From the IMG/VR virus record IMGVR_UViG_2541047777_000012: a DNA stretch of 38,285 nt, one strand, 5' to 3'. This DNA is from a virus (taxonomy: Duplodnaviria; Heunggongvirae; Uroviricota; Caudoviricetes). Below are positions 1 through 31,677 of this stretch, piece by piece; positions within the stretch are counted from its first letter, which is position 1; every line of letters starts with the position of its first letter. The notes under the pieces are model-generated. The model ran no database searches, was not told the DNA's origin, and saw only the letters and a program-made list of their open reading frames with translations. The position numbers were made by a program, and so were the translations under genes.

Positions 1-2109
1 TTACACCATACTGTTAACCTGGCCGGGTAATTCGCTAGCTGGAATACGAAAGGTATACCAGGCATAACGACAGCGTTTCCACAGGCTGGAGAAATGGAGA
101 TGATAAAGGCAATCTGCAATAATTTCGTTATCTGGATATAAAGACTCGGCAAAATGTGTCCAGCGCGCACTGAGTTTCATGTTAAACAGTTTTTCATCTT
201 CTTTGTTACCATACAGGCGCGACAAAGTAATCATTGCTTCGAGCGTACCTTTATTCGCTTCTTCTTGTACCTGTTGGAGGTGCAAATGAGCAAGTGAGAG
301 TTCTTTCACCTCAAAGATATTAAGTAAAAAAAGCCCCCATGCTTTTTCATGTCCAGCTTCATGAGCCAGAAATAAATTGTCAAGGAGATTTTTTTCATAA
401 ATAGCCCGTGTTTCTTTAGAAATTTCTTGTTTATTTAGTGCCTGGTAGCAGATAGCAATGCTAAAATAAATATTTTGTAGATCTTGTTGATGTTCGCTAT
501 AACCATAATTTTTTACCAGTGGATAAGATACCGAGCTATGGAAATTTAGGTCATCTTGAAGTATTTTAAGTGCCCGTCGAAAATACTCCAAAGCTGTAGA
601 TGGTTCATAAGGTAATTTTGTATTGTCTTCCTTATCCAAATATTCAAGAGCAACTAAATTTAATGCGGCAGGAATATTTCTTTGCTTACCAATTGTCGCA
701 AGCGGAATGAAATAATCAGAAAGGTCAAACCAACTCAAATCTTTTATTGCCGACCGCCAATTATGATTGTATTTAATGTCACTAGCTTTTTCCAGCCAAG
801 CATCGCCCTGCCCTTCATCTTTTTCAAAACCCAAAATACCCTCTCGCTGGAAAAACCCCCTATAAATAACAGGTGTAGCATAAGTTGTATTCTGTGAATT
901 TTGGCAGATAAAATTATATATCCAGAATGAATCTGGATAATAACTTAATGCAAATTTTATCGCGTACGCAGTGTAATAATTATTGAGCTTCATGTCTTCC
1001 ATCACCGCTCGCTGTATACAGCACCACAACTTATCGTGATCGTTCTGCTTGTTATAGCAGGCAAGTAACCACTCTAGGGCATTATGGCGACATTCCTGAA
1101 ATTGTGCGTACTGAGCAATATTCTCTGCTAAGTCGATTGCATATTGTTGCTCCTCGGGCGCAATGTCCTCAATGCTGACATCTCGGTAATCATCCCACCA
1201 AAGTAAGAGATCCATATAGTCATGTTCTTCGGTAGATAAGTGCTTACAGGTTACTGAATCCAGCAATTCGGAAATTTCTTTATGCGACCCTCCCCAGCGT
1301 GGCATTCGAAATGGTATATATTCAACAAAAGGATAAAAAGTGTGAGGAAAAATAGTCAGGCAAACAGAAAGCCAATATTTTTGCCCACCATCATCATCAT
1401 ACTCAGGAAGTATATTGGGGCGAGGCAAAACGGGGCATATTGCATGCTCAAACGAAAGTCCGGAATACGCCATCAACGCTTCCACTTCTTGCGGGGAGCG
1501 GCGGTGATAATTTTTCAGTGCGATCATTAATGGTATTCCTGCGACACTATCACCGTTAAGGTGTGCCGCCAGCCAGGCTGGCTGACCAAATACTTTTGAG
1601 TTGGTGCTGGTAAGTAATGCAGCCATCCATTGTCGTGGGTCACAATCAATTGCTTTAAGTGTAGCGATGACCATTTGTTCATTACATGCACCAGCACAAA
1701 GCCACATTGCATGTGTGGTATCATTTGCCCAGCCATAACTGCGATATAACCATGCACGGTGATTCCAGTATTGTGCTTCGGCAAGCCAGGCATGTGTAGA
1801 ATGAGGTCTTGCTTGCTGCCAGGTTTTAATGAGTCTTAAACCTTCTGTTCCGGCATCAACTAGCGTGTTCATATCATAAAAATAGTTGCACATTTGGGTC
1901 CAGGATAAAAAATAGCGCTTTTCAGCCTGACGAGAAGTGAAACTCTCCTGTAATACCTGGTTATAAATTTCATCTAGTTCCTGATAACGTTTTTCTTGTA
2001 ACATATAAGGAATATTTGCGATTTGCCATTTTCTCTCAAGAGTATTAAGTGGCATTTTTTGGTCACACATCTTTTGCATTGCACTGAGTAAACGAGCATC
2101 CTGTTCCAT
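1..2109 (-). CDS. hypothetical large Trp/Tyr-rich protein, distal gene of an AT-rich three-gene operon (702 aa from the ATG at 2109; 715 aa if started at 2148)
   Basis: Uninterrupted minus-strand ORF ending with TAA at 1..3. The ATG at 2109 has AAAAGGA about 6 nt upstream and lies 10 nt after the stop of the preceding gene; the 2148 start overlaps that gene and has a weak RBS. No family recognised. Confidence 0.6.
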   Translation of the reverse strand: MEQDARLLSAMQKMCDQKMPLNTLERKWQIANIPYMLQEKRYQELDEIYNQVLQESFTSRQAEKRYFLSWTQMCNYFYDMNTLVDAGTEGLRLIKTWQQARPHSTHAWLAEAQYWNHRAWLYRSYGWANDTTHAMWLCAGACNEQMVIATLKAIDCDPRQWMAALLTSTNSKVFGQPAWLAAHLNGDSVAGIPLMIALKNYHRRSPQEVEALMAYSGLSFEHAICPVLPRPNILPEYDDDGGQKYWLSVCLTIFPHTFYPFVEYIPFRMPRWGGSHKEISELLDSVTCKHLSTEEHDYMDLLLWWDDYRDVSIEDIAPEEQQYAIDLAENIAQYAQFQECRHNALEWLLACYNKQNDHDKLWCCIQRAVMEDMKLNNYYTAYAIKFALSYYPDSFWIYNFICQNSQNTTYATPVIYRGFFQREGILGFEKDEGQGDAWLEKASDIKYNHNWRSAIKDLSWFDLSDYFIPLATIGKQRNIPAALNLVALEYLDKEDNTKLPYEPSTALEYFRRALKILQDDLNFHSSVSYPLVKNYGYSEHQQDLQNIYFSIAICYQALNKQEISKETRAIYEKNLLDNLFLAHEAGHEKAWGLFLLNIFEVKELSLAHLHLQQVQEEANKGTLEAMITLSRLYGNKEDEKLFNMKLSARWTHFAESLYPDNEIIADCLYHLHFSSLWKRCRYAWYTFRIPASELPGQVNSMV

Positions 2110-2119
2110 AGATATCCTT

Positions 2120-2836
2120 TTAATTAGGTTCAAAAATTTTAAATTCATTCCACGGCAATTTTTTCCAGTTACTGGATGGATCTTTCAACCATGCAGTGAC
2201 TTCCTTTAAATCACGGTTCGCAGTGGCGACGGGGGTATCGTATATCATTAACCATTTTTGTCGGGCGCGAACATAAGCACTGGCATAATCTTCCCATGAA
2301 GCGAAACAATCTTGTGCTCTTTGAGCATTCAGTAATAACACTATCCAGGCCTGGTTTTCATCGCACCAGCCTAAACCGGCGATGCAACGAGTTAAAAAAG
2401 CAGTGCGCATACAGTCAAACGCCAGCCCATCCAGAACCTGGCCTTGTGCTGCCAGTTGTTCGTAAAAATCATGTGGAGAATTACCAAGCCCTGTAGCCCA
2501 GCGCTGTAATATAACGCCAATTTGTTGACGGAAATCTTCGTTGCTTTGGTAAGTTTCTGTTCCTAGCTCTTGTTTAACCTGTAGTGCAAGTTGTTGACGC
2601 TTATCATCAGTCAACTTTAAATCTAACGTGAAGCCATTTACTGACAGTCCATTACGACGAGCAACTATATCACCAATTGCTAATGCCCACTTACGTCTCT
2701 TTGTTGCTCGTCTTTTGTCCTTGATTAGATCCTTTTCTTTTTCTTTAGCAATAAAAGCATCGATTTGTGGTTTGTTTTTTTTGTATCTATAGATAAAAAT
2801 AAATATTGCGACCAGGAGAACAATGATAAGACTCAT
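2120..2836 (-). CDS. hypothetical protein with one N-terminal transmembrane helix (238 aa)
   Basis: ORF with hydrophobic N-terminus (LIIVLLVAIFIFIY) followed by a basic stretch; its start overlaps the stop of the upstream 404-aa gene as ATGA, indicating translational coupling. AT-rich codon usage. Confidence 0.6.
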   Translation of the reverse strand: MSLIIVLLVAIFIFIYRYKKNKPQIDAFIAKEKEKDLIKDKRRATKRRKWALAIGDIVARRNGLSVNGFTLDLKLTDDKRQQLALQVKQELGTETYQSNEDFRQQIGVILQRWATGLGNSPHDFYEQLAAQGQVLDGLAFDCMRTAFLTRCIAGLGWCDENQAWIVLLLNAQRAQDCFASWEDYASAYVRARQKWLMIYDTPVATANRDLKEVTAWLKDPSSNWKKLPWNEFKIFEPN

Positions 2837-4050
2837 TATTTTTCAACCTCTGACAGGGGTAAGTAATGAGATGTCTGTAATGTCAAACTCTCTATCTCAA
2901 AGGAAATGTTGCTGATATTTTGACCTGCAAATTGCGGATGCCACTCAGCGCCAGGGAATAACATTTCCGCAGAAGTAGCAACTATAGGGTCAATAGCATT
3001 AAGATAATGTAACTTATCAGGTGCGCTGTGTAACAGTAACCACTGCAACTCCACTGAAGGATTTGTAAAATGTTCTAATAAATGAAAGTTATTATGTAGT
3101 ACGCTTAGTAAAAAACTGGTTTCGTATACTTCCGTTACATATTTCCACCCCTGATATTCAGGTGTATTTTCATAAACAATACCCATACCTTCACAATCAC
3201 TATGTCGAACTGCTTGTGGTGATAATAGTTGCAAAAGAGACAAAACATCGTCCGCATATTTTTTAACTGGATGACGATTTTGCTTACCTTTTATTTGATC
3301 AATTTCAAGTGAATCACCAACAACATTGAGAGCAATAGTAACATGAGGAATATTATTATTATCACGCAAACTGAATAACCGTAATTTATGTTGCTCAATT
3401 TGATTTGCATAATACTCACCATAACCACCGGTAAGATTTTTTCGATCATCAAACTGGCCTACGCAATGTTGCATATGCCATGATTCATAAGCCATTTCAC
3501 GACGAAGGTTCGAATGACTGGCATCAAACTCAACAATTTTTCCGTCTGGCACATCAAGTATTGACTTTACAGTATTTTGTTCACTCGGCTGCCACCCTTT
3601 CTCGCGTCGTTGAAGCATCTTTTCATGCTCTTCTTCACGCATTCTGAACGCAACGTAGCAGGTTATGCGCTGTAGTTTTGATTCCAGACGGGTACCACAT
3701 TTCCTGGAAAGAAATTCCACCAACTCCCGTTCTTTGGTTAATATTTGTTGATGATCGGTTTCGATATAATAAAGTGTCGCAGTTGATACTGAGGCAGTAT
3801 TAAACTTCGATACCAGCCATTCCGGGATTACATCATCATTTTTATTAAACAGTGAATATTCTGCAAGCGAGTTAATTTGTTGCACCATTGGAAAGTCACT
3901 AATTAGCCATCGATAAAAATGGTTGAGTAACCATTTTTGGATGGTCTCATTATCCTGGCGAAACAGACTTCTTTGCAAAATTGCTGTTTTTACTTCCGGG
4001 GCATTAATTACATCCCTTGCATTATAATTCTGGTGAATATTTCCAGTCAT
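2836..4050 (-). CDS. hypothetical protein (404 aa), first gene of the three-gene operon
   Basis: Long minus-strand ORF, AT-rich, divergent from yegQ. No convincing catalytic motif identified by eye. Confidence 0.6.
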   Translation of the reverse strand: MTGNIHQNYNARDVINAPEVKTAILQRSLFRQDNETIQKWLLNHFYRWLISDFPMVQQINSLAEYSLFNKNDDVIPEWLVSKFNTASVSTATLYYIETDHQQILTKERELVEFLSRKCGTRLESKLQRITCYVAFRMREEEHEKMLQRREKGWQPSEQNTVKSILDVPDGKIVEFDASHSNLRREMAYESWHMQHCVGQFDDRKNLTGGYGEYYANQIEQHKLRLFSLRDNNNIPHVTIALNVVGDSLEIDQIKGKQNRHPVKKYADDVLSLLQLLSPQAVRHSDCEGMGIVYENTPEYQGWKYVTEVYETSFLLSVLHNNFHLLEHFTNPSVELQWLLLHSAPDKLHYLNAIDPIVATSAEMLFPGAEWHPQFAGQNISNISFEIESLTLQTSHYLPLSEVEK

Positions 4051-13113: not shown

Positions 13114-13893
13114 ATGAGTAATGAAACACAATCATTCCTTAGTCAATTGCTAATATCCATAATCTCTATATCTTTAGGGTCATTTCTTTTTGCTGGAATC
13201 CTAGAGAGCTACAAAAAAGACCCAGATCTTCAGGAGGAGTTTATAAAGGATTACTTTAGGCCAATGATGAAATTACAAAGTTCTTGTTCATCTTCACATA
13301 ATGAACTATTTCTAAAGTATGGAGAGTTATCTGCTTCTTATCAGCTCATGTATAATGAAATAGTACATATGGCAATGAGCCCTGATTCAGAATTAGGACA
13401 ACATTATGAAGTTCTCCCGATGTCTCTTATTAAAACAAATGAAGAGTTAAAAAAAAGAGTTGAAGATCTTGAAATGACGGTAAAAAAATGCAATATCGAT
13501 TTATTCCTTAAGTACGAAGAGCTTGCATTAGTTACTGGTTCATATCCAGAGTTTAAGAGGCTGGCGAAAAAACACACTGACACAATTAACTCCATCTATT
13601 CAGAAAGACAAAAAAAAGCAAAGGGAAATGCAAAAAATATAGACCCTGATCAACTAATTCCATTGATGCGGAAATATATTGCCATGGATCCACACACCAA
13701 TGTAAACAAATCCATGCTTGCCAGTGAAATTGATAACATATCTAAACTAACAACACAGCATAATTTGATAATGGCAGAATATGAGGAGTTAATTTTCAAA
13801 GAAGATAATGATTTATTTATAACTCTTCATGATCTTTATGCAATCAAAATTAGTGAAAAGTATTCAGGTGGATTTATCAGTTGGATATTTTAA
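13114..13893 (+). CDS. hypothetical membrane-anchored protein (259 aa) occupying the P2 Z/fun cargo position; candidate exclusion or abortive-infection factor
   Basis: AAGGA RBS 5 nt upstream of the ATG; a single N-terminal hydrophobic helix (LLISIISISLGSFLFAGIL) followed by a Lys/Glu-rich soluble region. Clearly AT-rich, and convergent with the flanking late genes. Confidence 0.7.
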   Translation: MSNETQSFLSQLLISIISISLGSFLFAGILESYKKDPDLQEEFIKDYFRPMMKLQSSCSSSHNELFLKYGELSASYQLMYNEIVHMAMSPDSELGQHYEVLPMSLIKTNEELKKRVEDLEMTVKKCNIDLFLKYEELALVTGSYPEFKRLAKKHTDTINSIYSERQKKAKGNAKNIDPDQLIPLMRKYIAMDPHTNVNKSMLASEIDNISKLTTQHNLIMAEYEELIFKEDNDLFITLHDLYAIKISEKYSGGFISWIF

Positions 13894-18313: not shown

Positions 18314-18661
18314 TCAACTCACAGGGATGGTTAACGAAAGTGGCTGGCCGGTGTCGTTGTGCTGGCCGGTTAACGTGACCGTCATTCGCCCGTCAAAGCT
18401 GCGCTCAGTGATGACGGATGACAGGGTGACGCGGGGTTCCCATTTCAGCACCGCCATGTAACAGGCGACCTTAATCTGCAACTCAAGCGCCGGGGTCTGC
18501 GGCTGGTCAATCATTGACGCCAGCAACGAGCCGTAATCTCGACGCATCACCCGTGAGCCGACCGGTGTGCGCAGGATATCGCCGATACTCTGGCTGATAT
18601 GCTCAAGGTCAGTGACAGTCAGGCCATCACTGCGATTCATTCCGAGATAACGCGCAGTCAT
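18314..18661 (-). CDS. W: baseplate protein gpW
   Basis: 115 aa, as P2 gpW. Confidence 0.9.
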   Translation of the reverse strand: MTARYLGMNRSDGLTVTDLEHISQSIGDILRTPVGSRVMRRDYGSLLASMIDQPQTPALELQIKVACYMAVLKWEPRVTLSSVITERSFDGRMTVTLTGQHNDTGQPLSLTIPVS

Positions 18662-19293
18662 AGAGGCCCCCCTGTTGTGCCGCCACTGTCTCCGGGGTGT
18701 TTATGGGTATGCAGTACCTTCCCGTTTGATGAGAGTTCACCGCCGGTGTGTTCAATGTTGCCGCGCATCGTCCCGCCCTTCTGTACTTCCAGCGTGCCGG
18801 TAATCAGCCTGTTGGTGCAGACCACCTCCGGCGTGTCCAGAGTGACACGGGTTGATGCTTTCACCGTGACCACCGGCACCGTGGCAGTAACAGAATCAGA
18901 AGCCGTCACGCTGGCCGTTTTAATTCCGCTTACCGTCAGTGCACTGGTTTCAGGTTCATACTCAATCACCGCCCCGTCAGGGAAACGTATGTGCAGGGCA
19001 TCCGCCGACGCAGACGGCGGAGGGTTATCGCCGGAATAAATCCCCGGCAGAACGAACGCCGTGTCGAGTTCACCGCCCACGGCCAGAATCAGCACCTGTT
19101 CCCCCACGGAAGGTGCCCACCATGTGCGCGAACGTCCGGCGCGATGGGTCAGCCACTGAAGCCAGTCGGTGCACATGCCGCCGGTCTGCACACGGCAGCT
19201 ACCGGCGTAAAGGTCGGTTTCGATGATAATGCCGGTGCGAATCATGTTGCGCAGTGCGCGCGCGAGTTCCTGAATATTTGCGAGAGTGTTCAT
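18658..19293 (-). CDS. V: baseplate spike / central hub protein gpV
   Basis: 211 aa, as P2 gpV (MNTLANIQELARALRNMIRTGII...). Confidence 0.9.
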   Translation of the reverse strand: MNTLANIQELARALRNMIRTGIIIETDLYAGSCRVQTGGMCTDWLQWLTHRAGRSRTWWAPSVGEQVLILAVGGELDTAFVLPGIYSGDNPPPSASADALHIRFPDGAVIEYEPETSALTVSGIKTASVTASDSVTATVPVVTVKASTRVTLDTPEVVCTNRLITGTLEVQKGGTMRGNIEHTGGELSSNGKVLHTHKHPGDSGGTTGGPL

Positions 19294-19393
19294 AACGGGA
19301 AGGATGCCGCTAGTTTACACTAGCGGCAAATTTTGATGCTTTGGTGAGGTATGATACAACAGACTACATTCCCCCCCTCAAATAAATCACAAT

Positions 19394-20746
19394 TTAATCG
19401 TTAATAAAAACTGAAAAACACCTCTCCCTTTCTATTAATTGATCCCCATTCCAAAAAGATACAAACATATAATGCAGTCCTTTGTAATGACAATCTTCCC
19501 AATGCTTAGCAAAATAACGCTCGCCAGTGTACCTTGCTACCTCATATGACTCATGATTACCCTTATTATCAACATTACCTGCATCAGGACCTGTATTTTC
19601 GACACGAAATTTGAACCTGGGATTAGAGTACTGTTCTTGTGAGTAATAGTACCCTTTAAATGAGATACCCATACCCTTTTTTATCATTCGAGAACAACAA
19701 ATATACTCATCATCAGACACATCATTTTCACTCTTCTTAAGCGTTGCTTTTACAATGAGTTTACCCCCCTCATCATTTATAGGCAGCAAATTACAATAAC
19801 GTTCGTTATCAAATACATATTGTCTGTAATTTATTGGTTTGCCTGAAGCATCTTTATAATTTGGGGTTAAATACAATTCCTTGTGTTCTACGCCATTGTT
19901 TCTGTTAATTTTATGTTTTAATTGAACATCATCAAGGCCTAATAACTCTACAAAACTTGCACCTATCATAATTGAGTTTTTAGGAGCTTTTTGCTGAAGT
20001 TTTGCCGCAACATCAACAAAAAAAGATGTCGCAGTCACTTCATGACTTTCCATATAGCCATATTTTGACCACACCACTTCCTCGTGAGGGCCATAGTCAA
20101 GACCAATTCTTATTCCTAAGTTTTCGTCAACTCCCAAATCACTCAATTTAGGTATAACAACCCCCTTGAACATTTCAATCAAAACAACGGCACAGTTTAT
20201 TGCATCAATTGCACTGTCTGCGATCTTATTGTTTTTATATCGGTCATTACTTCGGAAAAATGCCATTACTGCATCACCCATAATTCTATGGACGTGACCA
20301 TCAAATGCATTCACTGTTTCGATCGCACATCTTATAATATCATTTTTGATTCTAAATACTATTTCTGGTGGAAAAACAACCCCAAGTTTAGTTGAGCCGA
20401 TTATATCCATAAACATGGTAATGGAATAACCATTTCTCACCTCACCATCATCCATTTTATTAAAGTCCGGATGACATCCAAAACTTGTCATGAGTGGACC
20501 GTGCTTGCCAAATTTATTTCTAACAATATCTTTCACCTGATAACTTTGAACATCAGTTCCACCTACATCTTTTTTCAATGAAATAGAACTTCTTACGAAA
20601 CCAGAAGATTTACTTAAGCTCTCCGTGGCCAACTGTGTATTATCCACTGATTCAAATATAGCATCATGGACTGATTGCGATTTTGATTTTGAAATTATCT
20701 CTTCCAGCCTTTCATCTAATACTGAATAAATACTCTTTATGGACAT
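19394..20746 (-). CDS. class III nucleotidyl cyclase (adenylyl/guanylyl-cyclase homology domain) protein with N- and C-terminal extensions of unknown function; cargo gene 2 of the S-V cassette
   Basis: Cyclase motifs seen in the translation: SITMFMDIIGSTKLG (metal-binding Asp in FxDIxGxT), HRIMGDAVMAFF (second metal Asp in GDA), IRIGLDYGP and FFVDVAAKLQ. Start set at the ATG at 20746, which has GAAGG 8 nt upstream (450 aa); the ORF-track start at 20782 has no RBS. AT-rich. Confidence 0.75.
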   Translation of the reverse strand: MSIKSIYSVLDERLEEIISKSKSQSVHDAIFESVDNTQLATESLSKSSGFVRSSISLKKDVGGTDVQSYQVKDIVRNKFGKHGPLMTSFGCHPDFNKMDDGEVRNGYSITMFMDIIGSTKLGVVFPPEIVFRIKNDIIRCAIETVNAFDGHVHRIMGDAVMAFFRSNDRYKNNKIADSAIDAINCAVVLIEMFKGVVIPKLSDLGVDENLGIRIGLDYGPHEEVVWSKYGYMESHEVTATSFFVDVAAKLQQKAPKNSIMIGASFVELLGLDDVQLKHKINRNNGVEHKELYLTPNYKDASGKPINYRQYVFDNERYCNLLPINDEGGKLIVKATLKKSENDVSDDEYICCSRMIKKGMGISFKGYYYSQEQYSNPRFKFRVENTGPDAGNVDNKGNHESYEVARYTGERYFAKHWEDCHYKGLHYMFVSFWNGDQLIERERCFSVFIND

Positions 20747-20756
20747 ACAAAAACCT

Positions 20757-21296
20757 TCACCAATTAGATAAAGCAACCACATATATTAAAAAACAAAGCA
20801 CATAAACAGCCATTTTTATAAAGTCAATGGCTATGATTTGCATCTCATATTTGCTAGTTAATGCTCTGGAAAGAGTATAATTCAATGCAATTAACTGCTC
20901 CAACAACTCCAGATCACTCACTGACTTAAAACTACTAGAATAGCAATCAAGACTACTATAATAACTTGATATATCAACAAATGAAAAAGTATTCTCCTTA
21001 TCACTCTTAGAGATATTTGGAGTAACACCTTTTAGAGAAAATAACAAAGAGATCACCAATAACCCAACTATTACAATCAATAAAAGAGAGAGAAAAAGCC
21101 TATCACTATCCACATCTACCAGACTTATAACTTTGTCAAAATTTGCTATAATAGCAACAATTACAGCTGAAGCTAAGCTTAGTAATATCGTTGATTTAGT
21201 ATTGGCTGAATTTAAATAAGAATCCGTCCGCGCGATTGTTTTCAGCACCAGTTCAATTTTCTTTACAACATCATCTTCATTCTTTTTACATGTCAC
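20757..21296 (-). CDS. small integral membrane protein with three predicted transmembrane helices (179 aa); cargo gene 1 of the S-V cassette
   Basis: Hydrophobic segments TILLSLASAVIVAIIANF, LFLSLLLIVIVGLLVISLLFSL and IIAIDFIKMAVYVLCFLIYVVALS. GTG start 15 nt after the S stop with AGGAAGG upstream; the exact start is uncertain. AT-rich. Confidence 0.65.
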   Translation of the reverse strand: MTCKKNEDDVVKKIELVLKTIARTDSYLNSANTKSTILLSLASAVIVAIIANFDKVISLVDVDSDRLFLSLLLIVIVGLLVISLLFSLKGVTPNISKSDKENTFSFVDISSYYSSLDCYSSSFKSVSDLELLEQLIALNYTLSRALTSKYEMQIIAIDFIKMAVYVLCFLIYVVALSNW

Positions 21297-21311: not shown

Positions 21312-21773
21312 CTATTCTCTGGATTTTTCCAGAAGACAATTAATGATCGTTGATTCTATAAAGTCAATATCATTATGTGAAAAACCAAGTAGTTTACGTT
21401 CATCATACTTAATAGGTTTAACGTCGGGATTGGGTCTATCTTTTAAACCATACTGATGCACTCGCGCAATTCGTTGCACTCCGCTGGCAAACTCCACCAC
21501 CGCGGCACTCTCGCTACCGGTTGCTTTCATAAACCGGTTAGTGCGTAATTTCATAAACATTTCCCGCTTTATCCGGCCTTTCTTATTTCGCACTGGTTGT
21601 TTTTTCCTCGGTACATACGGCATACCATCCGGGGCTTTTTGTAATTTAATTCTCTGCTGCTGACGCTGGCGCAGTTTCTTCGCGACATCTACCGCCACTC
21701 GCCGACGCCCTGACGGTGACAGCGACTCAATCAGTCCGGTCAGCCGGTCTTCAAAACGCTTAAACTCATTCAT
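21312..21773 (-). CDS. S: tail completion protein gpS
   Basis: 153 aa, position and size as P2 gpS. Confidence 0.85.
   Translation of the reverse strand: MNEFKRFEDRLTGLIESLSPSGRRRVAVDVAKKLRQRQQQRIKLQKAPDGMPYVPRKKQPVRNKKGRIKREMFMKLRTNRFMKATGSESAAVVEFASGVQRIARVHQYGLKDRPNPDVKPIKYDERKLLGFSHNDIDFIESTIINCLLEKSRE
21339..21367 (-). promoter_or_regulatory. candidate sigma70 promoter inside the 3' end of S, oriented toward the S-V cassette
   Basis: On the minus strand TTGACT, a 17-nt spacer, then ATTAAT, about 40 nt upstream of the membrane-protein start. Sequence match only. Confidence 0.3.
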
Positions 21774-30501: not shown

Positions 30502-30504
30502 ACA

Positions 30505-30529
30505 TCGCCGCCTGCGGGCGGCTTTTTTA
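30505..30529 (+). terminator. rho-independent terminator after Q
   Basis: Stem gccgcc-tgcg-ggcggc followed by TTTTTT, directly after the Q stop. Confidence 0.7.
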
Positions 30530-30668
30530 CACCCCGTCATCCCCCCTCACACGCTCACCACCGCACAAAACACCCCGCAGACACACAACGCCTCAACGGG
30601 CAGACTAAGCGCCGTCACGACGCGCTGAGACGCTGAAAAAATACAATCAGCACCACCGTCAGCGCGCA

Positions 30669-30687
30669 GTGCTTTCCCCGCCTCGCC
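30669..30687. other. cos site (19-nt cohesive end sequence)
   Basis: gtgctttccccgcctcgcc is the reverse complement of the P2 cohesive end GGCGAGGCGGGGAAAGCAC as I remember it. Confidence 0.8.
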
Positions 30688-31261
30688 CGCCCGCTTCATG
30701 TGGCGGTTTTAATGCAGTTGCATAGATACTATGGATCCGCACCAGCTCTGACCGCAAGCAGCCGGAACGGGCATCCCCGACGCATGCAAAAACATTCACT
30801 TGTTGCATGCACGGCTTATTTAATGACAAATCAACTTAAGCGTCACCGCAGCTCCCACAAAAAAAAAACGTAACACCATGATTTTAGTGATATTTATGAC
30901 TTTTTTAATTGCTTATTTAAGTCCACCATATTGAAACCGTGCATTTTTTAGCCGCCAATAACTTTAAAAAATTTACATTGCTTTCAATACCTTATCATCC
31001 GTAGTCTCTGCTTTTTACTTTGAGCTATATCAAAAAAAGCTCAAACATCCTTGATGCAAAACCAGGATTACACAACATAAAATGCAACCAGAAACAACGA
31101 CATACTATATGTTGTGTTGTTCAGGCTCTCTGTTCGGTGATATGCCAGATCACTTTGCGTTTAAACAGAGCATTATTTCAGGGCAAGACTTCGCTAAATA
31201 GTAACTCCGCCTTAGAAGCGCATATATCGGCGGAAATTGCCCTCTGCTTACAGGAGGAGAT

Positions 31262-31375
31262 ATGAAGAAGTGCTATTACTGCATTCTCGTTCTGGCCCTC
31301 TTTGGCTATCCATATGGTAGTCCAAGTGGTTTGTCAGTAAACGTCAGTAATATCCATGTAAGTATTATTCTTTAG
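31262..31375 (+). CDS. small hydrophobic peptide (37 aa) in the tin/old cargo position
   Basis: Strong SD (caggaggagatATG); translation MKKCYYCILVLALFGYPYGSPSGLSVNVSNIHVSIIL; followed by a terminator at 31386..31419. Confidence 0.45.
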   Translation: MKKCYYCILVLALFGYPYGSPSGLSVNVSNIHVSIIL

Positions 31376-31385
31376 TATGCTTCAA

Positions 31386-31419
31386 ACAAAAAAACCACCT
31401 GCCAGGGTGGTTTTTTTGC
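31386..31419. terminator. bidirectional rho-independent terminator (A-run, hairpin, T-run)
   Basis: aaaaaaaccacc-tgccagg-gtggttttttt; likely ends both the small-ORF transcript and the early operon after A. Confidence 0.7.
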
Positions 31420-31677
31420 GCCTGTCATCATTCCGATGAAAGACTAGCAAGACTTCGCTCGAGATGAATTATGCTTCGACAAAAGGTCACTCGCAATGGT
31501 TTTATTAGCCGAAATAGATGCTCTTTTATGACTCGAATCAAATAGCTGCTTTAAATTACATGCTAGCGATTCAATACAATTTAGCCTTCTACTTCAGCAT
31601 GCTATTGCTCCTCATCTGCCTTAGAGGCGCTTCGCATAATCCATTCAAAGGCATATAAAATCACGCTGCATTTTTAC

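What the first reader, a model, noticed from the sequence alone, without database searches (positions are those of the whole stretch)
19394..21296. AT-rich two-gene cassette between tail genes S and V: a three-helix membrane protein plus a class III nucleotidyl-cyclase-like protein
Seen in sequence: two minus-strand genes sit exactly where P2 carries its non-essential orf30 moron. The second protein has the hallmark elements of a class III cyclase homology domain: FMDIIGST and RIMGDAVMA (the two metal-binding Asp motifs), IRIGLDYGP, and VDVAAKLQ, spanning about residues 118-285 (roughly 20087..20460). It also has a ~115-aa N-terminal and ~175-aa aromatic-rich C-terminal extension with no motif I recognise. 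The upstream partner is a 179-aa protein with three predicted TM helices. Established knowledge: class III cyclases paired with membrane effectors are the basis of Pycsar immunity, and P2-like prophages concentrate defence genes in cargo slots. Inference: this looks like a cyclic-nucleotide-signalling defence or conflict module, but it is not canonical Pycsar. The order is membrane protein then cyclase, the membrane protein is too small to hold a cyclic-nucleotide-binding domain, and the cyclase carries an extra C-terminal domain that may be the sensor or effector. The cassette is packed 15 bp after S inside the late operon, so expression in a lysogen would need an internal promoter; a candidate lies at 21339..21367.
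Basis: partly seen in the sequence, partly recalled or inferred. Interest (0 to 1): 0.85.

Follow-up and report, generated by a model that had tools for sequence, protein, structure and literature searches.

The report
Pycsar antiphage operon in P2-like prophage
The two AT-rich genes between the prophage tail genes S and V are an ordinary Pycsar anti-phage system: a cyclase that makes a cyclic pyrimidine alarm signal and a small membrane protein that responds to it. Standard annotation pipelines already recognise the pair.

Summary
Two minus-strand genes, 20757..21296 (179 aa) and 19394..20746 (450 aa), form a block of 32-35% GC between P2-type S and V, which are 51-59% GC. All four cyclase motifs are present.

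- The small protein matches Pfam PycTM above its cut-off and PADLOC PycTM at 7.6e-29. RefSeq names it "Pycsar system effector family protein".
- The large protein matches PADLOC PycC model PDLC00764 end to end at 1.3e-128.
- Its "unknown" C-terminal domain is AGS-C, a known feature of Pycsar cyclases.
- The order PycTM then PycC is kept in seven of the eight other loci examined, which come from seven genera. In the eighth, PycTM is missing.

The system is not the tested E. coli E831 one. It is about 34% identical to an EcPycC-like sequence, and the AGS-C domains are 19% identical. Both share the same best PADLOC model and the same active-site residues (F-x-D, H-R-x-M-G-D).

The product, probably cCMP, and the defence phenotype are inferred, not shown.

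Interest is low.

The parts
20757..21296 (-). pycTM: the Pycsar transmembrane effector, 179 aa, GTG start. It has three hydrophobic segments (residues 35-53, 67-85, 159-177) and no cNMP-binding domain.
   Evidence: Pfam PycTM PF18967 scores 28.1 bits against a cut-off of 27.2. PADLOC PycTM PDLC02364 gives 7.6e-29 and PDLC02365 gives 3.1e-28. RefSeq names it 'Pycsar system effector family protein'. Hydropathy scan. The AF2 model is all-helical with pLDDT 87. No PDB fold match is better than E 0.14.
19394..20746 (-). pycC: the Pycsar cyclase, 450 aa. The 462-aa ORF that starts at 20782 overlaps pycTM and is not the start used by homologues.
   Evidence: PADLOC PycC PDLC00764 gives 1.3e-128 over profile positions 6-448 of 449. 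RefSeq CDS is 450 aa. Full-length homologues of 440-460 aa carry PF00211 plus PF18134. The AF2 model has pLDDT 84.
19928..20416 (-). Class III cyclase homology domain (residues 111-273). The metal-binding Asp residues are D114 and D158. Residues F112, R154 and M156 sit at the positions that set CTP specificity in EaPycC.
19403..19759 (-). AGS-C (Ig-like) C-terminal domain, residues about 330-448.
21339..21367 (-). Conserved promoter-like block TTGACT-N17-ATTAAT (TTGAC-N14-GATCATTAAT), inside the 3' end of S and 43-71 nt upstream of the pycTM start codon. It is a candidate cassette promoter.
   Evidence: The block is identical in E. coli, Klebsiella, Enterobacter, Yersinia and Pantoea loci, while the surrounding sequence diverges. 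There is one match in the window against 0.02 expected. In Yersinia it lies after the stop codon of a truncated S remnant. The generic promoter scan did not list it, and that scan was not enriched over shuffles.
21312..21450 (-). AT-rich 3' end of gene S (GC 0.317). It belongs compositionally to the cassette and encodes a divergent S C-terminus.
21312..21773 (-). P2-type gene S (virion morphogenesis / tail completion), the upstream flank.
18658..19293 (-). P2-type gene V (baseplate assembly), the downstream flank.
19305..19361 (-). Region upstream of V that is retained downstream of the cassette. It holds a block that aligns to the annotated pV activator-binding site of P2 (19334..19361) and a GC-rich hairpin (19305..19328).

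Best explanation

The first gene encodes a PycTM-family membrane effector. The second encodes a PycC cyclase of the clade-E type. It has an N-terminal helical extension, a class III cyclase domain, and a C-terminal Ig-like AGS-C domain.

The proposed mechanism is taken from characterised Pycsar systems. Infection by another phage activates PycC. PycC converts a pyrimidine NTP, most likely CTP, into a 3',5'-cyclic mononucleotide (cCMP). That signal activates PycTM, which impairs the inner membrane. The result is growth arrest or death before the invader completes its cycle.

The pair probably has its own promoter in the AT-rich 3' end of S. pycC is probably translationally coupled to pycTM, because the gap is 10 nt and a GGTGAAGG Shine-Dalgarno-like sequence spans the pycTM stop codon.

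Shown here: family membership of both proteins, the fold, the catalytic residues, the conserved synteny, and the location.

Inferred: the identity of the nucleotide, the trigger, the membrane-damage step, the defence phenotype, and promoter activity.
For: Family matches:
- Pfam Guanylate_cyc, AGS_C and PycTM all score above their curated cut-offs.
- PADLOC gives PycC 1.3e-128 over the full length and PycTM 7.6e-29.
- RefSeq PGAP names the partner 'Pycsar system effector family protein' in six complete genomes that are at least 99.7% identical.

Structure and residues:
- Both metal-binding Asp residues and two of the three EaPycC CTP-specificity residues are kept. The third is Met.
- An EcPycC-like sequence has the same F-x-D and H-R-x-M-G-D residues. 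Its AGS-C is 96% identical to 9ARD, and its best PADLOC model is also PDLC00764.

Conserved gene pair:
- The PycTM-PycC pair in that order recurs at 42-67% cyclase identity in Klebsiella, Enterobacter, Yersinia, Pantoea, Vibrio and Pseudomonas. It sits in P2 slots and in integrase-bearing islands.

Literature:
- E. coli E831 Pycsar makes cCMP and defends against T5 and P1 through PycTM.
- Only clade E is known to make cCMP.
- AGS-C is known to be fused to PycC enzymes.
Against: - No experiment on this particular orthologue was found.
- It is only about 34% identical to the EcPycC-like sequence, and that sequence was stitched together across two frameshifts in a Logan contig.
- EaPycC Q144, which is needed for its cCMP synthesis, is Met here.
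- A 2026 preprint reports 'Pucsar', an offshoot of the Pycsar family that makes cGMP and has TIR or TM effectors. I could not read it, so I could not test whether this clade belongs there.
- No solved structure resembles PycTM, so the effector mechanism rests on phenotypes reported for homologues.
- The generic promoter scan is not enriched over shuffles.
Confidence: 0.85

Rival explanations
1. The architecture is the same, but the second messenger is cUMP rather than cCMP.
For: Most PycC clades make cUMP. The third CTP-specificity residue of EaPycC (Q144) is replaced by Met.
Against: The nearest characterised relatives are both cytidylate cyclases: EaPycC, and the protein behind 9ARD (EcPycC). 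The EcPycC-like sequence has the same F/R/M residues and the same best PADLOC model. The cUMP cyclases 7R65 and 8JSZ are much more distant, at profile E-values of 1.4e-3 and 6.9e-6 against 2.2e-47.
Confidence: 0.12
2. It belongs to the recently reported purine-making offshoot ('Pucsar'). Under this reading, PucC makes 3',5'-cGMP and activates a TM effector.
For: The abstract of bioRxiv 10.64898/2026.08.12.744502 says Pucsar cyclases are related to Pycsar and pair with TIR and TM effectors. The search tallies show that its full text mentions EcPycC and AGS-C.
Against: The effector matches the Pfam and PADLOC PycTM models. The cyclase shares its subfamily model and active-site residues with an EcPycC-like sequence, and EcPycC is a reported cCMP producer. 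The nearest structure is a cytidylate cyclase. The preprint could not be read, so this rival was not properly tested.
Confidence: 0.05
3. This is the first reader's reading: a new, non-canonical cyclic-nucleotide conflict module in which the C-terminal domain is a novel sensor or effector and the small membrane protein is not a nucleotide receptor.
For: No cNMP-binding domain is detectable in the 179-aa protein. How PycTM senses its ligand is not known from any solved structure.
Against: Both proteins match existing Pycsar models over their full length. The C-terminal domain is AGS-C. The gene order is the clade norm.
Confidence: 0.02
4. The cassette mainly serves the prophage's own life cycle rather than defence of the lysogen. 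Examples would be lysis timing or exclusion of P4-type satellites, since it would be co-transcribed with the late O operon.
For: The cassette runs in the same direction as S and starts 15 nt after it. No terminator-like site lies between them, whereas P2 has an O-operon terminator at that point.
Against: The same pair occurs outside any late operon. In Yersinia it is next to gpA, and in Vibrio and Pseudomonas it is in integrase islands. It carries a conserved promoter-like block of its own. The homologous E831 system defends when cloned alone.
Confidence: 0.03

Closest known systems
E. coli E831 Pycsar (EcPycC + EcPycTM; Tal et al. 2021, Cell), the founding cCMP-producing system
   Same: Both are two-gene systems made of a TM effector and a cyclase. 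The cyclase has a class III domain plus a C-terminal AGS-C domain. An EcPycC-like sequence shares the best PADLOC model (PDLC00764) and the F-x-D and H-R-x-M-G-D active-site residues. The host species is the same.
   Different: It is not the same protein. It is about 34% identical over 364 aa to the EcPycC-like sequence. The AGS-C domains are 19% identical and cannot be detected by phmmer. EcPycC-like DNA is absent from 5,426 complete E. coli genomes, whereas this cassette is in six. I could not obtain the full EcPycC or EcPycTM sequences, so the effectors were not compared.
EaPycC, the clade-E cytidylate cyclase of Elizabethkingia anophelis (PDB 8JSF; PMC11224242)
   Same: It is the best match by both sequence and fold. 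It shares the two metal-binding Asp residues and the Phe and Arg that set specificity.
   Different: EaPycC has no AGS-C domain (its chain is 342 aa). Its Q144 corresponds to Met here. Identity is about 25-27%.
Type I CBASS CD-NTases fused to AGS-C
   Same: The C-terminal Ig-like AGS-C domain is shared. It is thought to tune which phages are sensed.
   Different: The signal-making enzyme here is a class III cyclase, not a CD-NTase. The PADLOC CBASS cyclase models match only residues ~340-454.
P2 orf30 slot, and the P2 old/tin (A-Q) defence hotspot of Rousset et al. 2022
   Same: It is accessory cargo in a P2-like prophage, in a slot whose content varies between phages. The slot is empty in fiAA91-ss, holds a 246-aa hypothetical protein in R18C, and holds orf30 in P2.
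   Different: The hotspot analysed by Rousset et al. is the cos-proximal A-Q locus, not S-V. In this window that locus has no ORF of 90 aa or more. P2 orf30 is on the opposite strand.

Membership tests
Pycsar | A PycC cyclase with a class III nucleotidyl-cyclase fold and two metal-binding Asp residues | tested here: met
Pycsar | An adjacent effector gene of the PycTM or PycTIR type | tested here: met
   Pfam PycTM PF18967 scores 28.1 bits against a cut-off of 27.2. Four PADLOC PycTM models match at up to 7.6e-29. The gap to pycC is 10 nt.
Pycsar | The cyclase-effector pair is conserved as an operon across taxa | tested here: met
   PycTM lies directly upstream of PycC in Klebsiella, Enterobacter, Yersinia, Pantoea, Vibrio and Pseudomonas loci. 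The one exception is Erwinia pyrifoliae, where a transposase gene takes the place of PycTM.
Pycsar | The product is a cyclic pyrimidine mononucleotide (cCMP or cUMP) | not testable with these tools
   There is only indirect support. F112 and R154 match EaPycC F100 and R142, while Q144 is Met. The same F/R/M residues occur in the EcPycC-like sequence.
Pycsar | Confers phage resistance by abortive infection when expressed | not testable with these tools
   This is reported for E831 Pycsar and other homologues. Nothing was found for this orthologue.
Pycsar clade E (cytidylate cyclases) | Groups with EcPycC and EaPycC rather than with the cUMP-making clades A-D | tested here: inconclusive
   No tree with the published clade labels was built. 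Profile E-values are 2.2e-47 for 8JSF (clade E), 6.9e-6 for 8JSZ (clade D) and 1.4e-3 for 7R65 (clade B). The subfamily model is shared with the EcPycC-like sequence. The protein has a single cyclase domain, so it is not clade A.
E. coli E831 Pycsar (identity with the tested system) | Same or nearly the same protein sequences as EcPycC | tested here: not met
   Identity to the EcPycC-like reconstruction is 34%. Identity to 9ARD in the AGS-C domain is 19%.
AGS-C domain (PF18134) | A C-terminal Ig-like beta-sandwich fused to a signalling nucleotidyltransferase or cyclase | tested here: met
CBASS | A CD-NTase (SMODS) signal synthase | tested here: not met
   The PADLOC CBASS cyclase models match only the AGS-C region. 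There is no CD-NTase or SMODS Pfam hit.
Canonical cNMP receptor (CAP/CRP-type CNBD, as in PycTIR) | A cNMP_binding beta-roll domain in the effector | tested here: not met
   No such Pfam hit appears at E of 1 or less. The model is entirely helical. This is expected for PycTM and is not evidence against Pycsar membership.

The most novel reading that the evidence does not exclude
The mobile unit is not just the two genes. It is a module made of the 3' end of S, a promoter, pycTM and pycC. The module carries its own conserved promoter-like block with an invariant GATC next to the -10 hexamer. It enters P2-family prophages by recombination within S. This would make the S-V slot a recurrent home for this Pycsar lineage in at least four enterobacterial genera. 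Its strongly diverged AGS-C domain (19% identical to that of EcPycC) would then give it a different phage-sensing range from the tested E831 system.
Probability: 0.4. Interest if true: 0.3.

Novelty: already known. Interest (0 to 1): 0.15.

Why it matters
It matters little for discovery. The pair is a recognisable Pycsar system that PADLOC-type tools and NCBI's pipeline already label.

Its modest value lies in four points.
- It documents Pycsar as cargo of the P2 S-V (orf30) slot in several genera. That slot is different from the A-Q hotspot studied so far.
- It provides a second, diverged E. coli PycC/PycTM pair. Its AGS-C domain differs strongly from that of EcPycC, which could help test whether AGS-C sets phage specificity.
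- It points to a testable promoter embedded in the end of a structural gene.
- PycTM still has no structural homologue in the PDB, so how it senses cCMP remains open for the whole family.

Tried and rejected
- The Tal et al. 2021 paper could not be read, nor could the Pucsar preprint.
- No supplementary sequences were available.
- The AFDB Foldseek library was unavailable, so I could not look for the Swiss-Prot EcPycC entry.
- A search with the 9ARD fragment returned only truncated proteins. I rebuilt an EcPycC-like cyclase from three reading frames of a 4.5-kb Logan contig. It lacks the N-terminus and the upstream gene, so EcPycTM and its gene order were not seen.
- EcPycC-like DNA is absent from the E. 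coli complete-genome and plasmid collections.
- Megablast of the cassette against 50,697 phage records found nothing. tblastn found it only in Klebsiella phage Kp4852-2, at 62% identity.
- Foldseek of the PycTM model against the PDB gave no significant match.
- NCBIfam has no model that hits either protein.
- The generic promoter and terminator scan was uninformative, with 12 sites against 9.2 expected.
- The 23-base motif scan of GTDB representative genomes gave a single locus. This is consistent with the collection holding one genome per species.
Full report
**1. What is in the sequence**

The window is E. coli chromosome carrying a P2-like prophage. On the minus strand, gene S (21312..21773) is followed after 15 nt by a 179-aa ORF with a GTG start (20757..21296). 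After a further 10 nt comes a 450-aa ORF (19394..20746). After 100 nt more comes gene V (18658..19293).

The ORF list gives 462 aa for the larger gene, from an upstream ATG. RefSeq and all full-length homologues use the second Met.

GC content is 0.317 for the small gene and 0.353 for the cyclase gene, against 0.594 for V. The AT-rich block also takes in the last ~46 codons of S (0.317).

The small protein has three hydrophobic segments.

**2. What the two proteins are**

Evidence on the large protein:
- It matches Pfam Guanylate_cyc (25.4 bits, cut-off 21.9) and AGS_C (27.1 bits, cut-off 26.7).
- It matches PADLOC PycC model PDLC00764 over positions 6-448 of 449, at E 1.3e-128.
- The structure model is good, with mean pLDDT 84. 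Only a linker at residues 27-66 is disordered.

Evidence on the small protein:
- It matches Pfam PycTM, the 'Pycsar effector protein', at 28.1 bits against a cut-off of 27.2.
- It matches four PADLOC PycTM models, the best at 7.6e-29.

The exact proteins occur on 445 and 213 public contigs. NCBI already names the small one 'Pycsar system effector family protein'.

**3.

(a) Gene order. I fetched loci for homologues with 42-67% cyclase identity. In seven of them PycTM lies directly upstream of PycC. These are two Klebsiella loci and one each from Enterobacter, Yersinia, Pantoea, Vibrio parahaemolyticus and Pseudomonas aeruginosa. The one exception is Erwinia pyrifoliae, where a transposase gene sits in place of PycTM. 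The order is the norm for this lineage.

(b) Effector size. PycTM-family effectors are small and have no CRP-type nucleotide-binding domain. That is how the family is defined. Only PycTIR carries such a domain. The model of this PycTM is all-helical with pLDDT 87. It has no PDB neighbour better than E 0.14. How PycTM senses its ligand is therefore unresolved for the whole family, not just for this locus.

**4. Relation to the tested E. coli system**

I expected identity with the E831 system of Tal et al. 2021. That system makes cCMP and defends against T5 and P1. The expectation was wrong.
- The AGS-C domain of 9ARD is only 19% identical to the one here.
- phmmer cannot detect the similarity, although the family profile finds 9ARD at 1.2e-8.

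Using the 9ARD sequence I found a Logan contig whose AGS-C is 96% identical to it. From that contig I rebuilt 382 aa of an EcPycC-like cyclase across two frameshifts.
- This sequence is 34% identical to the window protein over 364 aa.
- Its best PADLOC model is also PDLC00764, at 4.6e-154.
- It has the same TMF-x-D and H-R-x-M-G-D active-site strings.

In EaPycC the residues F100, R142 and Q144 are needed for cCMP synthesis. Here they correspond to F112, R154 and M156. The EcPycC-like sequence also has F, R and M at these positions. Together this makes cCMP the most likely product, but it is an inference.

A 2026 preprint describes 'Pucsar', a cGMP-making offshoot of the family with TIR or TM effectors. 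I could not read it, so a purine product cannot be strictly excluded.

**5. Genomic setting**

In the P2 reference, S is followed by the O-operon terminator. Then comes orf30, which is non-essential and on the opposite strand. Next is the pV activator-binding site, and then V, whose transcript starts at its first base.

In the window the cassette replaces the terminator and orf30. A block that aligns to the pV activator site is kept at 19334..19361. The cassette therefore lies at the boundary between two late operons, co-directional with S, and no terminator-like site is predicted between S and pycTM.

The slot is variable. It is empty in fiAA91-ss and holds a 246-aa hypothetical protein in R18C.

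The cassette is rare. A P2-type V gene occurs in 1,574 of 5,426 complete E. coli genomes, but the cassette occurs in only six.

Related pairs sit in the same S-V slot in Klebsiella, Pantoea and a decayed Enterobacter prophage. The 62%-identical cyclase also occurs in Klebsiella phage Kp4852-2, an unannotated record whose slot and PycTM gene were not checked.

In Yersinia enterocolitica the pair lies next to the replication gene A. Even there it is preceded by a truncated remnant of S.

**6. Expression**

The generic promoter scan is not informative, with 12 sites against 9.2 expected. Comparison between species does support that site.
- The 29-nt block TTGAC-N14-GATCATTAAT (window 21339..21367, read as TTGACT-17-ATTAAT) is identical in the E. 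coli, Klebsiella, Enterobacter, Yersinia and Pantoea loci, while the surrounding S codons diverge.
- It occurs once in the window, against 0.02 expected by chance.
- In Yersinia it lies 18 nt beyond the stop codon of the S remnant, so it is non-coding there.

This fits a promoter or other regulatory site that travels with the cassette. It does not prove promoter activity.

**7. Verdict**

This is a known kind of system. It is already labelled as such in public annotation, and it has the standard architecture for its clade. It is a diverged relative of the tested E. coli E831 system, not a copy of it, and I found no experiment on this orthologue. Interest is low.

Noticed in passing
window 13114..13893 (+): A second AT-rich island (GC 0.34) lies between tail sheath gene FI and tail-fibre assembly gene G, which from memory is the P2 Z/fun slot. 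It holds a 259-aa ORF with no Pfam or PADLOC hit. The only match is phrog_7729, of unknown function. This is uncharacterised prophage cargo.
   Followed up: partly
window 19305..19328 (-): A GC-rich hairpin (TGCCGCTAGTGTAAACTAGCGGCA) ends 11 nt upstream of the V start codon. Its stem shows compensatory changes in fiAA91-ss and R18C. P2 itself has different sequence at this point. In P2 the V transcript is annotated as starting at the first base of V, so the hairpin would lie within the pV core promoter. It might also end read-through transcripts from upstream.
   Followed up: partly
window 21312..21450 (-): The last ~46 codons of S are as AT-rich as the cassette (GC 0.317). The S C-termini differ between P2-like phages that carry different slot contents. 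This suggests that slot exchange happens by recombination inside S.
   Followed up: partly
L011 2192..2444 (Yersinia enterocolitica): A 66%-identical PycTM-PycC pair sits next to the P2 replication gene A instead of in the S-V slot. It still has a truncated S remnant (aligning to S residues 79-116) and the conserved promoter-like block upstream.
   Followed up: yes
window 21344..21348 (-): The conserved promoter-like block contains an invariant GATC (a Dam methylation site) directly abutting the putative -10 hexamer. I did not test whether expression depends on methylation state.
   Followed up: no
L008/L009 3450..5317 (Pseudomonas aeruginosa): P. aeruginosa genomes carry a PycTM gene plus an AGS-C-bearing PycC that is 43% identical to the one here. 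That exact protein is indexed in 36 blocks of the assembly collection. A 2025 paper states that no cytidylyl cyclase or PycTM has been detected in that species.
   Followed up: no
L012 1836..4353 (Erwinia pyrifoliae): A 63%-identical PycC has no PycTM gene. A DDE transposase gene lies directly upstream instead, so this is probably an inactivated system.
   Followed up: no
window 30502..31677: The cos-proximal A-Q locus is the P2 defence hotspot of Rousset et al. and the home of old and tin in P2. In this prophage it is only ~1.2 kb long and has no ORF of 90 aa or more.
   Followed up: partly
NZ_CP007392.1 (E. coli ST2747): This genome has two matches to the cassette. The protein clusters include a 353-aa cyclase and a 99-aa PycTM from a contig whose length equals that of this record. 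This points to a second, truncated copy.
   Followed up: no
OR846597.1 48286..48936 (Enterococcus phage Efs 1-1-1): A deposited Enterococcus phage genome encodes a homologue of the cyclase domain alone (37% identity over residues 90-318).
   Followed up: no
window 1..4050 (-): The chromosomal flank is also AT-rich (GC 0.37-0.44). It encodes DUF4034, DUF1266 and PcfJ-like proteins in a row.
   Followed up: no
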